A stretch of 64,000 nt of DNA, taken from NCBI RefSeq assembly GCF_013167455.1, contig NZ_CP038328.1, one strand, 5' to 3'. Shown here one piece after another: positions 52,201-58,200 of this stretch. Each line of letters starts with the position of its first letter. Within the stretch, counting starts at the first letter, position 1. The stretch is from Escherichia coli O157:H7 (GTDB lineage: Bacteria; Pseudomonadota; Gammaproteobacteria; Enterobacterales; Enterobacteriaceae). Made by a program: the position numbers.

Positions 52201-55200
52201 GAAGTACTGACGAATCATGTTGCCAATTATCTCCGGTGTCACAGAATCCCCCATTCCTTCCTCCTTTCTTTCATACGCTGCAGATAACGTTCATAGTGCC
52301 GGGGTTTGTTCGGACTGAAGGAGAGGGGCCGGCACCAGAAATCATTCTTTATAAGTGTCTTACAGATACGCCGCCAGGACGGAATATCCCGGCTCCCCAG
52401 GTCATTCTCCTGTTCATCCGGGATGTCATCCGGGAAGCCCCGCGTCTGATACCAGCGCAGGTAGACAGCAATTTTATTACGGTAATGTTCTGCCGTTCTT
52501 TCCGGCATCACATCCAGCAGGAACATCGCATAGCTGCGCCAGGTATGATGGGCTGGTTTTGATATACGTTTACGCAGGGCAAAATAGGCACCGCTTTCAT
52601 TGGCATAAAGCGCCCCGCTGGCAGCGCCTGACACCCGCTCACACATCCTGGCCCAGGTTTCCGGCTCCAGAACATGGTAAAGCCACAGCCCCTTACGTTG
52701 TTCAGGACCAAAAGGTTCACAGACACGCATGTTGCGTAACGGCACGTCGGCACGGTACATCAGGTCATACAGAGGATTGTAAATGGCACAAGCTCTGGCG
52801 TTATATATCCAGATATCGCGGGCTTTCCAGTCATACAACGGATACATGGTGTAATAAAACCCTTCAGGCGATGCCGTGGTCCAGGGCTTATCATCGGCAT
52901 ATCTCAGTTTGCGCTGAGACACCAGCCCCATAAAGCGATTGAGGGATTCATCCGCACGAACACCGGTCAGCACTGCCACTCCACACCGGTTACCGGCAAA
53001 CCAGGAAGAAAATGCCGGAACAAATTCTTCAAACGTCATGGCATACCGGAAAAAGGGAAAATATGTCATATCCGTAATGGCCTCTTCCGGTGGCTGGCGA
53101 ACCCAGGTCACTCCTGGCTCCCAGCATATCCACTCCGGCTGAAACTGCGAGACGCCGTTTACCGTGGTCAGGGGAAGTGCCACCCAGTAAAAGGTTTCCG
53201 TCACATCATGGTACATTTCCCGCATCTTCTGAATATGTTCAATGGTGCACCGATACTGGGCCTCCCAGTCAATGAACAGAACAGAGAAATGACGTTTTCT
53301 CCTGCGGGCCACCTCTGCCACAAGATGGAAAAGCACGGTGGAATCCTTTCCACCTGAAAAAGACAGACATACCGACGGAAATGTTTCAAAAATCCACTCA
53401 ATGCGGGCGATTGCAGCACGCAAAACATTTTCTCCGGTAAGGATTTTTTCGGTTAAAAGCGTATCACTCATTTTCCTGGCTTTATGTCGAATAATTCTGT
53501 TTATACATTCAGGCAAACTTCATTAATAACTCACCGCTTTGGGGATAAATAATAACAACAAAAATCTTCAGATATTAACCTGGTTGTTGGATTTGTTATC
53601 ACATCCTTTATCCACCTGCTTCTTACTGGTAACACACCTGGAAAATCCATGCATTTTCAACATATACTATCCTTTCAACTTGTAAATAAGAAAATATGAT
53701 GCAGATGGTGAACAATTCAAATATCATTTTGCAGGAAGTATTCACTGTAATAGAATTACCCCCTGATAAAGTTTATTCACTAAGGAATTATTCAACAGAA
53801 ACATTCCCTGTTAGCTTTGAGCAATAGCACTTATTTTTATATGTATCAGGAATACGTACGTTGATGTAACCAAAACAAAGAAGCCTGTGTCCATGGGGTT
53901 CGTACAATTGTGTGTGGCACATGACCAAATCAGGTTTGAGACCTCCCGCTGCAATATTTTTTATTCAGATTTTAGCCTGTCAGGCCTGACAGAAACGCTC
54001 CCAACTTCCCTTCTATATCACTGTCTATAGTACGTAATCTTAGCAATGGCAGGCCGCATTTCTTCAGTATACTGTTTTTAAGTTCATCACGTTCAGCCTG
54101 AACACTGGTCAGATGATAACCTCCATCCACTTCAATAACCCCTAATGGAGTCTTCCCGACCTTATAGTAAACAACAAAGTCACAACTGGCCCGGTTACGC
54201 ATGAATAACTGTTCACGGTGTGTAAAATCCCCCCGCTCCAGCAACACCAACTGATTCAGCGCTATTTGTGAATGAAACATCATACTCCGATAACTATCCT
54301 GCGACAGGATATCCCGCAACAGGCAGGCCACAATCTGTTCTGACTTAAAGTGTGAATCATTTGAATTCAATCTACTATTCAGTCGTTCCAGTGATTTGTC
54401 ATACTCACTGTACAGCAAATCAAATGCTGATATGACCGGGCTCTCGAAAATCTCTCCGTCATCAGCGTAGTATTTGATGTAACGAATCAGCGCCGCAATA
54501 TGTCCAGCGTGGCGTTCAAATACATCATTACCAGTCACCAGCGTAAATTTATTTCGGGCCCTTGAAACAGCGACATTCACCAGTTCAGGATTATCAACAA
54601 ACGCGATGTTCCGACTGTGCTGGCTGCTGCGCTTCTTATCCAGCACAGTGGAAAACACAATTTCATCGCACTCCCGTCCCTGAAATTTATGCACCGTCGA
54701 TTTCACAAAATCAGCAGGCAGCACTTTTTCAGCCAGATTAACCTGTGCATTATATGGGGCAATGTATCCCCTGCTACTTTCTTCATCCCAGTAATGACCT
54801 TCCAGAGATTCAAGCTCCCTGAGATTTGAAAAATTACGGGTATGGTTTCCTTTTGCCGTGATGACCAGAGATAATGAGGCTTCACCGGAATCAACCGTTA
54901 ACGGTATCAGAGCATTATCATAAAACTGCTTATTACAAAATTGAATGATTTTAGGATGACAACGATAATGCTCTTTAAGAAGGGTTACTGGCACCATGTT
55001 CCTGAACAACATACAAACCGAATCAAGTAGACTATATTTCTCACAATTATAGTATTCTGCCGGTGGAGATGGGCTGTTCGGGAGTAATACAGGAACATGT
55101 GGAAGTTGCTTACGATCCCCTACAACGATTACATTACGGGCACATCCCAGTCCCAGAATGCCCGGAACAATATCCTGCTGCGAGGCTTCATCAATAATAA

Positions 55201-58200
55201 CATAATCAAGAAGGGCCCCCTTGCCGATAGAGTTAATAATCGAATGCGTACTGCTACCAATAATCGGAAAACGCTTTATAAAACGGTCAAATTCATCCCT
55301 GTATGTCTCTGCCGAGAATGAACTTCTTGTTGAAACATTTCTTCGCAGATGTTGCTTTAAATAAAGCATAGACCATGATGTCAGGCGCCCCAGTAAAATT
55401 TTAAAATCAGATTTTTTAAATGCTTCCTCATATTCATTCAGAGAAATTTGTTTTTCCCGGATATTTTTTTCATAATAAGAAAGCTGAAGAGAAGTAAATA
55501 GCGCCAGCCTTCTCTCCGGAATCATCAATGGTTTGACTTTCAGTATCATGAAGTTTAACAACAAATCAATTCTGTTTCTGAATCCAATCCGCCTGTCAGA
55601 AAGGTAATGAATATAAGCCATCAGGTCGGTTGTTTTTTGTGAGGAAAATCGGTATTTGTGAGAAAAAAGCTCCTCCGGTCGAAGATTCTGACTCTGCCAT
55701 TGCTGCAGGTATTTATACTCAATATTCAGCTCATTAATTTCTGCTTTTAACGAAGCGACCTGGTTAATGGCATTCAGGTGTTTTTTCACTTGTTGAAGTA
55801 CATCATCAATCGCATTTGCAGACGGTGAGTCAGGTAAGACTTCCTCAGAACGCGAAATCGACGTTGAAAAAAACTGTTGCCTGTTCTCCGTACTCCCCAG
55901 TCGTGCCATCACATATCCCAGTTGCTGTTTGTCCATCTTTTCATAAACATTACTGACAGCTGAGTTATTATTGGACAAAATTGCCACTGTTTTATTCTGA
56001 ATTAATATATTAGCAACAATATTGAGTATAGTCTGTGTTTTACCTGTTCCAGGTGGTCCTTCAATAACTGAAATCTGTGAGGAAAATGCCCGTTCGACAG
56101 CCAGCAACTGACTTTCATTAAGACCAAACGGAAAAATCAAACCCCATGGCGAATCACGTTTTTACTCTGTCCTGAACAGTATGCATGCAAGGCGGTATCC
56201 GGATGAGGAACTATTTTCTTTATCTGCCTAAGGATATTCTCATCGATATTTCTGTTATTACCACGGGCATAAAAAATACGTTCATTAGCCACCCTACACA
56301 AGTAATTAAACACGGCATGCTCTGTAAATGCTGAACACTGTTGAAAGTCAAGGCCGGTCGTTTTCATGATGTAGGGTCGTTCACCCTCGCGGTAATAAAC
56401 AGCAGCATATTTATCACCATATATAATAACCAGTTCAGCCCGGGATGTTACAGCGTTCCCTTTCCTTTCGAGGAAAACATTTCGCAAATTTACAGTTGGC
56501 GTTATCTGACATACAGAAAGCGGACGAGTATATTTTCTCCCGCTGCGAAAATGACAGGTCAGCATAACCTCTCTGTCGTCATTTCCAGCCCACAGCGTCC
56601 AGTCGGTAATTTTATGAGTCTTATTTTCACCGTCAACACAAATCGTGACCATATTCTTACTCAGAAATTATCATTTAACTTACGGAAAATTGTTAAGGCA
56701 CTCCCGATATTAGCTCCGGAGGATTTTCCACAACTCCGGGACTGTTAACATATTTCTGCCTGCCATATATACATTGAATTTAGTCATAACAGTCAATACC
56801 AGAATTACAGGAATGCGATGCCGATACGCTGGTTATTGAATACTGGTAGCCCCTGAGCACTAATTCATCACGATACTCTGTATTTACTGTTTTCACTGCT
56901 TTTTACAACCATTCCCCCAGGTAAAATGCTGCTCCTCCGGTGATGGCTGTGTCAGAAACTGCCATCCCGGAATAGCCACGCTGACCGCCAGCAATGCCGC
57001 ACAGACACCAGCCACAAACGGTTTCAGAAACGTGGGCGGGGATTTCTGAAGGGAGGGTGACTGCTCCGCCTGCACTTTCCCCTTGCGATTATCAAGGCTC
57101 AGTGCATCCAGACGCACCGCGCCATTTGCCGCAAGCAGCCCTTCCCGGTTATCCACGCTTCCCGGCAGACTCAGCGAAAAATCCCCTGTTCCCGTCTGAA
57201 TCAGACTGCCTTTACGATTTGACAGGCTTTGTGCCGATATCTGCAGTGTGTCGGCATTTATCGTACCGCCATTACTGCTGAACTGCCCGGCAGTCCGGGC
57301 GGAAAGCGTATCGGCACTCAGTTGCGCATTCTGTGTAGACAGATTTCCACTGGTTGCATTCAGCTCAGTATGTTGTCCCTGTATCCGGCTGTTACCTAAA
57401 TCCAGCCCCTGCTCAATGTCCCGTAAATCCAGCAGAGAACCTTCGTGTGCCGGGAATGAGGAATACAACTGAATATAGTCATCACTGTCCGGTGTCAGAC
57501 GCACATGTCGCACAACACCGGGAATAATAACCAGCCGGAGGATACCGCTTTTTAAATCCTGCGAAGGTGCCAGAACACGGGGGGTGACATAACCATGATC
57601 GACCAGACGGTTCTGCAATGTACTCATCAGCAGATTAATTCCTTTCGCCCCCAGGCAATGCCCGACCGCCCCGTTGGCGATTTTTTGTAAAGGCAGCCAG
57701 TGTGGTAACGCATCAGCCCCCTTCAGTTCCGTCTGTTTAATCTGAAAACAGGGCGTTTCAACAGGAAAATTAATCTTATGGGCAAAAGAGCCAGGTGCAG
57801 AAAGGCGAACATCAGGGGCTGAAGGCGTCAGTTGTTGCTCAAGGGCTTCCTGACGCTGCTGCTGAATGATAAATGCTTCATCTCCGCTACGCCGGACATC
57901 CGCTGCCTGAAGAGATAAAGGCGATAATAAAGCAGACATCAGTGTCAGTGACAGCAAGGACGGACAGCGCCGGAATAAGCTTTGTTCCTCAGTCCTCTCG
58001 TTCCTGCAACATAATTTTCCAGTCAAACGAAAAACCTTTTATTCATGTCATACCAACAATCACCAGCCTCCTGACGATACCTCCCACCATGTTTTGCGAT
58101 GGCACGCTACCGCCCTTCCGGTATTTACCCGCATCAACCGGTACCAGAATGCTGAGTAACAAACCAGCTAGAATTGACTTAATTTTGATCATTATAGAAT

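What the first reader, a model, noticed from the sequence alone, without database searches (positions are those of the whole stretch)
53972..56652. SF1 helicase with C-terminal nuclease-like domain, split from its N-terminal part by a frameshift at a homopolymer tract
The 722-aa ORF has a full set of Upf1/DNA2-like SF1B helicase motifs plus a C-terminal IEVDGGYH-type restriction-endonuclease-like domain, but its Walker A lies only about 30 residues from a TTG start that overlaps the stop of a 171-aa upstream ORF. On the coding strand the junction reads CATGGGGTTTGATTTTTCC; adding one T to the T3 run before TGA would fuse the two ORFs into one protein of about 893 aa. This is either a recently inactivated helicase-nuclease, a slipped-strand phase-variable gene, or a true two-gene arrangement. 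Helicase-nuclease fusions in islands are typical single-gene antiphage effectors (Nhi- or Hna-like logic), but this domain order with this N-terminal module is not one I can assign to a named system.
Basis: partly seen in the sequence, partly recalled or inferred. Interest (0 to 1): 0.7.

Follow-up and report, generated by a model that had tools for sequence, protein, structure and literature searches.

The report
Frameshifted helicase-nuclease gene in O157 island
This is a single 893-residue helicase-nuclease gene, possibly an anti-phage gene, on an E. coli O157:H7 genomic island; loss of one A from a run of six has cut it into two reading frames, and reference annotation already flags it as a pseudogene.

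Summary
Two minus-strand ORFs, 171 aa (56137-56652) and 722 aa (53972-56140), overlap at GTTTGA, and all the described motifs are present. The window is the SpLE1/OI-43/48 island of E. coli O157:H7.

The tract it named is wrong. Intact alleles in O111, O104:H4, O26 and O55:H7 are single 893-aa CDSs. They differ from the window by A6 versus A5 at window 56159-56163, about 20 nt upstream of the TGA. The T3 run is unchanged. The O111 allele differs from the window by that single base only.

Of 643 E. coli records carrying the junction, 212 have A5; those labelled with a serotype among the sampled rows are O157. About 430 have the 81-nt form, which is A6 in all five alleles read directly. The lesion therefore looks fixed in one lineage rather than phase-variable. 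Sakai already annotates it as pseudogene ECs_1383.

The intact protein has four parts:
- a family-specific beta-rich N-domain;
- a Upf1/MkoA-like SF1B helicase with a long helical insertion;
- a linker;
- a DUF2726 (Vsr-like PD-(D/E)xK) nuclease.

It is a stand-alone gene across Proteobacteria. Its architecture resembles type II Mokosh, Hhe and CoCoNuT III-B CnuH, but it meets the definition of none of them. Interest is low to moderate.

The parts
53972..56652 (-). The whole disrupted gene (Sakai ECs_1383, annotated 'UvrD/REP helicase-like protein', pseudogene). It is 2681 nt, against 2682 nt in intact alleles.
56137..56652 (-). 5' fragment ORF of 171 aa. Residues 1-163 are authentic N-terminal domain. 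The last 8 residues (NVIRHGV) and the stop are read out of frame.
53972..56140 (-). 3' fragment ORF of 722 aa from a TTG start. It carries the complete helicase core, the linker and the DUF2726 nuclease domain.
56159..56163 (-). The lesion: an A5 run on the coding strand (T5 on the + strand). Intact alleles have A6 here.
   Evidence: allele counts
56139..56141 (-). It is identical in intact and split alleles, so it is not the lesion.
56173..56652 (-). N-terminal family-specific domain (aa 1-160): about 10 beta strands (aa 1-105) followed by 3 helices (aa 113-160). It has no Pfam, PADLOC or NCBIfam hit.
55100..56122 (-). AAA_11 region, i.e. RecA1 plus a long helical insertion (intact aa 178-518). 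Walker A is at 56036-56059, and DEASQ is at intact aa 488-492.
54533..55009 (-). AAA_12 region, i.e. RecA2 (intact aa 549-707), with motifs V and VI (TVHKFQGRE, VAVSRA).
54017..54202 (-). DUF2726 / Vsr-like PD-(D/E)xK nuclease core (intact aa 818-879). Invariant residues: D825, E841, D843, H847, Q852, R855, D856, K859.
56667..56696 (-). Sigma-70-like promoter match (TTAACA-18-GATAAT, 10 of 12) just upstream of the ATG. This is a consensus match only.

Best explanation
One gene encoding an 893-aa stand-alone helicase-nuclease has been split in this lineage by loss of a single A from an A6 run (codons 163-165). All A5 rows that carry a serotype label are O157. ORF1 now ends 8 out-of-frame codons later at a TGA. 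The rest of the gene stays open only from a TTG that overlaps that stop. The lesion is recent, because there is no other difference from the O111 allele. It is fixed rather than switching, and it probably abolishes normal function, because the conserved N-terminal domain is no longer attached to the enzyme. The following is inferred, not shown. The intact protein is a 5'-3' Upf1/MkoA-type SF1B translocase that loads on single-stranded nucleic acid of an invader, such as a phage or plasmid replication or transcription intermediate. It then uses its C-terminal Vsr-like PD-(D/E)xK domain to cut that nucleic acid. The family-specific N-domain would act as a sensor or regulator. In logic this is a single-gene defence or conflict protein like type II Mokosh or Hhe.
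For: Shown:
- Identical junction context with A6 in O111, O104:H4, O26 and O55:H7, each annotated as one 2682-nt CDS.
- The window differs from the O111 allele by one deletion only.
- 212 records carry exact A5, against about 430 with the 81-nt junction.
- Both EDL933 island copies are split in the same way.
- Sakai annotates ECs_1383 as a pseudogene.
- Full-length single-ORF homologues of 888-912 aa cover 100% of the query in Salmonella, Yersinia, Serratia, Edwardsiella, Pantoea, Pseudomonas, Burkholderia and Photobacterium.
- The Salmonella sequence ...SKKRDFPGEVIFPFGI supports the A6 reading frame.
- The N-domain is found only at the N-terminus of this helicase family.
- All helicase motifs and the nuclease-motif residues are invariant.
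- The helicase core aligns in one stretch to PADLOC MkoA (1e-43, protein 178-729).
- The closest solved structures are Aquarius, SETX, IGHMBP2, UPF1 and DNA2.
- DUF2726 is classed with Vsr/DUF559 PD-(D/E)xK nucleases (PMC3424549).
- No partner gene is conserved across the 9 non-E. coli contexts examined.
Against: Loss of function is inferred, not measured. The 722-aa ORF keeps every catalytic motif. Its TTG overlaps the upstream stop (TTGA), a geometry that can allow termination-reinitiation, so a truncated enzyme might still be made. The defence role is untested. No PADLOC or NCBIfam model reaches membership level. Four of the nine non-E. coli contexts are simply downstream of guaBA, with no defence or mobile genes in view. 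The full-length AF2 model is poor in RecA2 (pLDDT below 50 over residues 557-752). The substrate, DNA or RNA, is unknown.
Confidence: 0.85

Rival explanations
1. The split is functional. In O157:H7 the 171-aa N-fragment and a 722-aa helicase-nuclease are both made, the latter by reinitiation at the TTG overlapping the TGA. They either act as a two-part system, or the truncated enzyme acts without its regulatory domain.
For: The TTGA stop/start overlap. The 722-aa ORF retains Walker A and all helicase and nuclease motifs. Most A5 alleles carry no further lesions. Bacteroides and Parabacteroides plasmid relatives align only from residue 113 onward, so the beta domain may be dispensable in some relatives.
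Against: The start is a TTG with a G-run only 1 nt upstream, which is poor Shine-Dalgarno spacing. No homologue outside this clone shows a two-ORF arrangement. The lack of further decay is uninformative, because the split alleles are nearly identical to one another. One A5 genome (CEC08123) has a second frameshift.
Confidence: 0.1
2. It is a phase-variable contingency gene that switches on and off by slippage at the A-run.
For: The lesion lies in a homopolymer. The two other frameshifted E. coli alleles seen also have 1-nt deletions in runs of 6 or more (A7 at nt 1184, G6 at nt 2420).
Against: A5/A6 is short; in my understanding, known contingency tracts are usually 7-8 or more repeats. Every sampled A5 record that carries a serotype label is O157, and the directly read non-O157 alleles are A6. 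Both EDL933 copies are A5. The two singleton lesions may be assembly errors.
Confidence: 0.03
3. The split is a sequencing or assembly artefact, or it is a programmed frameshift that still yields the full-length protein.
For: Homopolymers are error-prone in long-read assemblies.
Against: A5 is present in 212 separately deposited complete genome records, including the Sakai and EDL933 reference genomes. No RNA structure lies at the junction (z = +1.5). There is no Rfam element in the region. The shift is not conserved in orthologues.
Confidence: 0.01
4. The intact protein is not a defence factor. It is an accessory DNA-repair or replication helicase-nuclease (DNA2-like), or a maintenance factor of the element that carries it.
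For: DNA2 is among the sequence and fold matches. Four contexts sit next to guaBA housekeeping genes without mobile or defence genes. It is rare on phages and plasmids.
Against: Distribution is patchy: 647 of 5426 E. coli genomes. Where context is informative, the gene sits in islands with IS elements, NERD-UvrD (PADLOC C3a187) or toxin-antitoxin genes. It is readily lost by frameshift. The best profile hits are to defence helicases (MkoA/MkoC, PDC-S37, Hhe, ProA).
Confidence: 0.2

Closest known systems
Type II Mokosh (MkoC): single-gene Upf1-like helicase plus nuclease anti-phage system (Millman et al. 2022, 10.1101/2022.05.11.491447)
   Same: It is a single polypeptide with a Upf1/COG1112-type SF1B helicase followed by a C-terminal nuclease. 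The helicase core, including the insertion, aligns to PADLOC MkoA (1e-43) and MkoC (2e-40).
   Different: The nuclease is DUF2726/Vsr-like PD-(D/E)xK, not PLD. The MkoC alignment does not extend past profile position 956 of 1136 in either search, so it does not reach the C-terminal part of the model. This protein also has an extra family-specific N-domain. Defence has not been tested.
CoCoNuT type III-B CnuH (Bell et al. 2024, PMC11090510)
   Same: A UPF1-like helicase with a large helical insertion after Walker A, fused directly to a Vsr-like PD-(D/E)xK nuclease. Here helices 279-439 lie between Walker A and DEASQ.
   Different: No McrB/McrC (CnuB/CnuC) or CnuA genes lie nearby in any of the contexts examined. 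The N-terminus is a beta-rich domain, not the Sul7s-like wHTH.
Hhe (Gao et al. 2020; NCBIfam NF042953, PADLOC PDLC02194)
   Same: A single-gene SF1 helicase with a Vsr-family endonuclease at the C-terminus. This description of the architecture is from my own knowledge.
   Different: Hhe models are about 1800-1900 positions long, and NCBIfam names Hhe as a DUF4011-domain protein. Only about 80-120 residues around Walker A match. The NCBIfam score is 77 bits against a cutoff of 2000.
Nhi (nuclease-helicase immunity)
   Same: One protein combining an SF1 helicase and a nuclease.
   Different: In Nhi the nuclease is N-terminal (from my own knowledge). There is no PADLOC Nhi hit at E <= 0.01, although the model exists in the library.
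Eukaryotic Upf1 / IGHMBP2 / SETX / DNA2 SF1B helicases
   Same: These are the best solved-structure matches to the helicase core, by sequence (1.6e-14 to 1e-10) and by fold.
   Different: They match only the RecA core. The N-domain, the insertion and the C-terminal nuclease differ. DNA2's nuclease is N-terminal to its helicase (from my own knowledge).

Membership tests
Type II Mokosh (MkoC) | Upf1-like (COG1112) SF1 helicase domain | tested here: met
   PADLOC MkoA 9.7e-44 (protein 178-729) and MkoC 1.7e-40. The top Foldseek PDB hits include UPF1, IGHMBP2 and SETX.
Type II Mokosh (MkoC) | C-terminal PLD-family nuclease | tested here: not met
   Pfam finds DUF2726 (5.7e-12) at 818-879 and no PLD domain.
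Type II Mokosh (MkoC) | Phage defence that depends on the ATPase and nuclease residues | not testable with these tools
   This needs plaque assays with the intact allele and with point mutants.
Hhe | Full-length match to the Hhe equivalog model, which NCBIfam names as a DUF4011-domain protein | tested here: not met
   NCBIfam NF042953 scores 77 bits against a cutoff of 2000. PADLOC Hhe matches only protein 181-260. Pfam finds no DUF4011.
Hhe | Vsr-family endonuclease C-terminal to the SF1 helicase | tested here: met
   DUF2726 at 5.7e-12, with a weak MTES_1575 hit at 0.046. DUF2726 is grouped with VSR/DUF559 in PMC3424549.
CoCoNuT type III-B | CnuH: UPF1-like helicase with a helical insertion after Walker A, fused to a Vsr-like nuclease | tested here: met
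   AF2 places helices 279-439 between Walker A (199-206) and DEASQ (488-492). The C-terminal domain is DUF2726.
CoCoNuT type III-B | Operon with McrB/McrC homologues (CnuB/CnuC) and CnuA | tested here: not met
   Neighbours in E. coli and in 9 other taxa include no McrBC-type genes.
Nhi | Match to the Nhi profile | tested here: not met
   No PADLOC Nhi hit at E <= 0.01 for either the split or the intact protein. The model is present in the library, since another protein hit it.
Vsr-like PD-(D/E)xK nuclease (DUF2726) | Conserved acidic and histidine motif residues on the core strands (D ... E-x-D-G-x-x-H) | tested here: met
   D825, E841, D843, H847 and K859 are invariant in the 30-sequence alignment A1.
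Vsr-like PD-(D/E)xK nuclease (DUF2726) | Nuclease activity | not testable with these tools
   This needs a biochemical assay.
Phase-variable contingency locus | A long simple-sequence tract, with both lengths found within one clone | tested here: not met
   The tract is A5/A6. Every sampled A5 record that carries a serotype label is O157. Both EDL933 copies are A5.
Programmed ribosomal frameshift | The shift is conserved in orthologues, with a stimulatory RNA structure | tested here: not met
   Orthologues are in frame. The junction RNA folds no better than shuffled sequence (z = +1.52). No Rfam element lies there.

The most novel reading that the evidence does not exclude
The intact 893-aa family is an undescribed stand-alone anti-phage or anti-plasmid system. 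It would combine a Upf1/MkoA-type helicase, a Vsr-like DUF2726 nuclease in place of Mokosh's PLD, and a family-specific beta-rich N-terminal sensor domain with no relative among solved structures. It inserts as a single gene, repeatedly just downstream of guaA. On this reading the O157:H7 clone has lost it through a 1-nt deletion.
Probability: 0.4. Interest if true: 0.5.

Novelty: new variant of a known kind. Interest (0 to 1): 0.3.

Why it matters
For O157:H7, this is one more recent, lineage-fixed gene loss on the SpLE1/tellurite-adherence island. It is already flagged as a pseudogene in Sakai, so on its own it is ordinary.

The wider value is modest. About 12% of complete E. coli genomes, and many other Proteobacteria, carry an intact helicase-nuclease that is annotated only as 'AAA/DUF2726 domain-containing protein'. 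This protein combines the Mokosh-type helicase with a different nuclease and an unexplored N-domain.

If it defends against phages, the O157 (off) and O55:H7/O111/O26 (on) alleles form a natural pair differing by one to a few bases, ready for testing. The family would also be a further example of exchangeable nuclease effector modules on one helicase scaffold.

Tried and rejected
1. T4 to T3 as the lesion. Rejected: the T3 run is identical in intact alleles, and the difference is A6 versus A5.

2. A functional link or mutual exclusion with the neighbouring ibrA/ibrB (PAPS-reductase-like and ParB-like). ibrA is a pseudogene in O111, O104:H4 and O26, where the helicase is intact, and the reverse holds in O157. 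Rejected: O55:H7 DEC5E has both genes intact, and ibrAB is absent from all 9 non-E. coli contexts.

3. A conserved partner gene or McrBC association. None was found.

5. A solved-structure relative of the C-terminal domain by sequence. None was found.

6. An RNA element or frameshift-stimulating structure at the junction. None was found.

7. Literature on DUF2726, the locus tags, or AAA_11/AAA_12 in defence. No functional study of this family was found in the searchable library.

8. The full-length AF2 model is only partly usable. RecA2 has pLDDT below 50, so no domain-interface argument was made from it.
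Full report
**Observation.** The ORF list confirms two minus-strand ORFs at the stated coordinates. One is 171 aa with an ATG start (56137-56652), and the other is 722 aa with a TTG start (53972-56140). The coding strand at the junction reads CGCCATGGGGTTTGATTTTTCCG, so the TGA of the first ORF overlaps the TTG of the second. 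The Walker A motif GPPGTGKT lies 28-35 residues into the second ORF, and IEVDGGYH lies near its C-terminus.

**Where the window comes from.** The region is 100% identical to E. coli O157:H7 genomes. In strain Sakai it lies within the phage-like element SpLE1. There the two ORFs are annotated together as pseudogene ECs_1383, 'UvrD/REP helicase-like protein'. RefSeq/PGAP annotations of other O157 genomes call two CDSs, 'hypothetical protein' and 'AAA domain-containing protein'. EDL933 carries the island twice, and both copies show the identical split. The neighbours are a truncated HecB/POTRA gene upstream, and ibrA, ibrB and a PerC-family gene downstream.

**The lesion.** In O111:NM, O104:H4, O26:H11 and O55:H7 the same locus is a single 2682-nt CDS of 893 aa. 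The junction alignment shows that the T3 run and everything around the TGA are identical in the split and intact alleles. The difference is GAGTAAAAAACGTG (A6) in intact alleles against GAGTAAAAACGTG (A5) in the window.
- A whole-gene alignment shows the window differs from the O111 allele by that single deleted A and nothing else.
- The run is at gene nt 490-495, which is window 56159-56163.
- The intact reading is ...YCSGQSKKRDSPWGLIFPFGLNESQ. The O157 reading is ...SKNVIRHGV*.
- The Salmonella homologue reads ...QSKKRDFPGEVIFPFGI, which confirms A6 as the ancestral frame.
It would, however, leave seven wrong residues.

**Population picture.** The locus is present in 647 of 5426 complete E. 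coli genomes. An 80-nt query across the junction gave 212 records with the exact A5 form. Every sampled A5 row that carries a serotype label is O157. About 430 records gave an 81-nt match with one gap; the sampled rows are non-O157 serotypes, including O55:H7. The five non-O157 alleles I read directly are all A6.

This pattern fits a fixed, lineage-specific deletion. Since O55:H7 strain DEC5E carries the intact gene in the same neighbouring-gene context, the deletion probably arose after the O55:H7/O157:H7 split. That dating rests on established knowledge of the O157:H7 lineage, not on a test made here. I did not determine the serotype of every A5 genome. One 100%-identical record is from a 5.1-Mb pig isolate, NJS001.

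Two other frameshifted alleles were seen. CEC08123 has A5 plus a deletion in an A7 run at nt 1184. Strain 08-00022 has a deletion in a G6 run at nt 2420. Being singletons in homopolymers, these could be real slippage mutations or assembly errors.

**Why not phase variation, an artefact or programmed frameshifting.** The tract is short (A5/A6) and does not vary within the clone. A5 appears in 212 separately deposited complete genome records, including the Sakai and EDL933 references. The junction RNA is no more structured than shuffled controls (z = +1.52). No Rfam family matches in this region.

**What the intact protein is.**
- *Domains.* Pfam on the 893-aa allele finds AAA_11 (178-518), AAA_12 (549-707) and DUF2726 (818-879, 5.7e-12), with a weak MTES_1575 hit. 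Nothing matches residues 1-177.
- *Conserved residues.* A 30-sequence alignment at 56-83% identity has these invariant: Walker A (E198, then P200-PGTGKTQT-208), DEASQQD (488-494), GD.KQLPH (512-519), H.FQGRE (655-661), VAVSRA (694-699). In the nuclease, D825, E841, V842, D843, H847, Q852, R855, D856 and K859 are invariant.
- *Nuclease class.* DUF2726 is classed among PD-(D/E)xK nucleases and grouped with Vsr/DUF559 (PMC3424549). It is also described as an REase-fold DNase fused to defence-associated N-terminal domains (PMC3710099).
- *Helicase class.* The closest solved proteins by sequence are IGHMBP2, UPF1/NAM7, SETX and DNA2. By fold, Aquarius joins this group. This places the helicase in the Upf1-like SF1B clade.
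- *Helical insertion.* The AF2 model has long helices at 279-439, inserted between Walker A and motif II. RecA2 was poorly modelled.

**The N-terminal domain.** This is the part the frameshift detaches.
- It was modelled with confidence (pLDDT 88.5) as about ten beta strands (1-105) followed by three helices.
- An exhaustive HMMER search of 1.84 billion representatives found it in only 62 clusters. The family-like hits all start at or near the protein's N-terminus. The full-length ones are helicase-sized, about 850-910 aa.
- Foldseek against AFDB50 returned the same helicase/DUF2726 family, reaching Bacillus, Enterococcus, Bacteroides and spirochaetes. Beyond that there were only low-TM SH3-like hits.
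- The domain's role is unknown. I infer a sensing or regulatory function only from its position and conservation.

**Context in other genomes.** I examined nine non-E. coli contexts, and no partner gene recurs.
- In Pseudomonas gingeri, Photobacterium halotolerans, Burkholderia contaminans and Herminiimonas glaciei the gene sits immediately downstream of guaB-guaA.
- In Serratia it is beside an IS element.
- In Salmonella it is near a NERD-UvrD gene (PADLOC C3a187, 1.6e-137), a LAGLIDADG protein and an IS66 fragment.
- In Vreelandella it is near a PIN/RHH toxin-antitoxin pair.
- In Methylobacillus it lies among ordinary genes.

The gene is rare on plasmids (18 records, mostly megaplasmids or chromids) and almost absent from phage records. 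It therefore behaves as a stand-alone, patchily distributed accessory gene.

**Comparison with known systems.**
- *Mokosh.* PADLOC gives only helicase-core matches: MkoA 1e-43 (one stretch, residues 178-729), MkoC 2e-40, PDC-S37 7e-37 and Hhe 1e-16. Mokosh is defined as a Upf1-like COG1112 helicase plus a PLD nuclease, and type II is a single gene (10.1101/2022.05.11.491447). Here the nuclease is not PLD.
- *Hhe and others in NCBIfam.* All NCBIfam hits (IGHMBP2 family, ProA, Hhe, PLuB) fall far below their cutoffs. The Hhe equivalog model is far from matched.
- *CoCoNuT type III-B CnuH.* This has the same core plan: a UPF1-like helicase with a helical insertion after Walker A, fused to a Vsr-like nuclease. 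It is defined, however, by its association with McrBC homologues and has a wHTH N-terminus (PMC11090510). Neither feature is found here.
- *Nhi.* The Nhi profile does not match.
- *Conclusion.* The protein works like these helicase-nuclease defence proteins in architecture, but it is not a member of any of them by their defining features. I found no functional study of this family in the searchable literature.

**Mechanism.** The following is shown: one gene, a one-base deletion, an N-domain separated from an otherwise intact enzyme, and fixation in one clone. The rest is inferred. The intact protein would be a 5'-3' translocase on single-stranded DNA or RNA that delivers a Vsr-like endonuclease to foreign nucleic acid, gated by the N-domain, and the O157 allele would be non-functional. 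A residual possibility, about 10%, is that the 722-aa ORF is still translated by termination-reinitiation at the TTGA overlap. The start is a TTG with poor Shine-Dalgarno spacing, so I consider this unlikely but untested.

**Rejected lead.** ibrA is a pseudogene in O111, O104:H4 and O26, where the helicase gene is intact, and intact in O157, where the helicase gene is broken. This suggested incompatibility between the two genes. However, O55:H7 DEC5E has both intact, and ibrAB never accompanies the gene elsewhere. I therefore dropped the idea.

**Verdict.** The lesion itself is already annotated and is ordinary genome decay. The intact family is an uncharacterised variant of the helicase-nuclease single-gene defence theme, and a simple repaired-allele experiment would be worthwhile. 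Interest: 0.3.

Noticed in passing
L007:5234-10703, L008:6351-10718, L016:4465-10703, L018:4115-8715: In four distant genera (Pseudomonas, Photobacterium, Burkholderia, Herminiimonas) the intact helicase-DUF2726 gene sits as a lone gene immediately downstream of guaB-guaA, with no integrase or IS element in view. This may be a recurrent insertion hotspot or targeted site.
   Followed up: partly
window 52239-53516 (ibrA); L002:9281-10513, L003:9290-10522, L004:9281-10512: ibrA (PAPS-reductase-like) is intact in O157 and O55:H7. It is annotated as a pseudogene (internal stop or frameshift) in the O111, O104:H4 and O26 islands, where the helicase gene is intact. Strict reciprocity is refuted by O55:H7 DEC5E, which has both intact.
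   Followed up: yes
L010 (gene nt 1184) and L011 (gene nt 2420): Two further E. coli alleles carry independent 1-nt deletions, both in homopolymers (an A7 run and a G6 run). Every lesion seen in this gene is therefore a homopolymer deletion. The two singletons could be assembly errors.
   Followed up: partly
window 56893-58026 (-): The upstream gene is a HecB-like/POTRA-domain protein (348 aa as annotated). It looks to me like a truncated two-partner-secretion transporter fragment. In Sakai an IS629/IS1203 lies just beyond it; in O111 the same gene is present without the IS.
   Followed up: no
window 51616-53516 (-): The ibrA/ibrB pair (PAPS-reductase-like plus ParB-like) gives only weak PADLOC hits: BrxP at 9e-08 and DndC at 2e-04 for IbrA, and none for IbrB. 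It gives strong PHROG hits, up to 3e-138 for IbrA and 2e-82 for IbrB. This is a phage-associated pair of unknown function.
   Followed up: partly
window about 16900-17870 (Sakai mdtG, ECs_1431): mdtG, a drug efflux gene in the chromosomal part of the window, is annotated as a pseudogene in Sakai. It is another apparent gene loss in this lineage.
   Followed up: no
window 28790-28881 (+), 18652-18694 (+), 47142-47377 (-), 9472-9521 (+), 34481-34565 (+): Rfam matches at gathering threshold elsewhere in the window: ES056 sRNA, ES036 (CssrF) sRNA, IS102 RNA, the PyrC leader, and a tRNA at the position expected for serX, which borders SpLE1. None is near the finding.
   Followed up: no
L017:21046-23726 and L005:3099-5779: EDL933 carries the island twice (at about 1.12 and 1.52 Mb; these are OI-43 and OI-48 by my own knowledge). 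Both copies have the identical split gene (WP_001304206 plus WP_001304205), so the frameshift predates the island duplication.
   Followed up: yes
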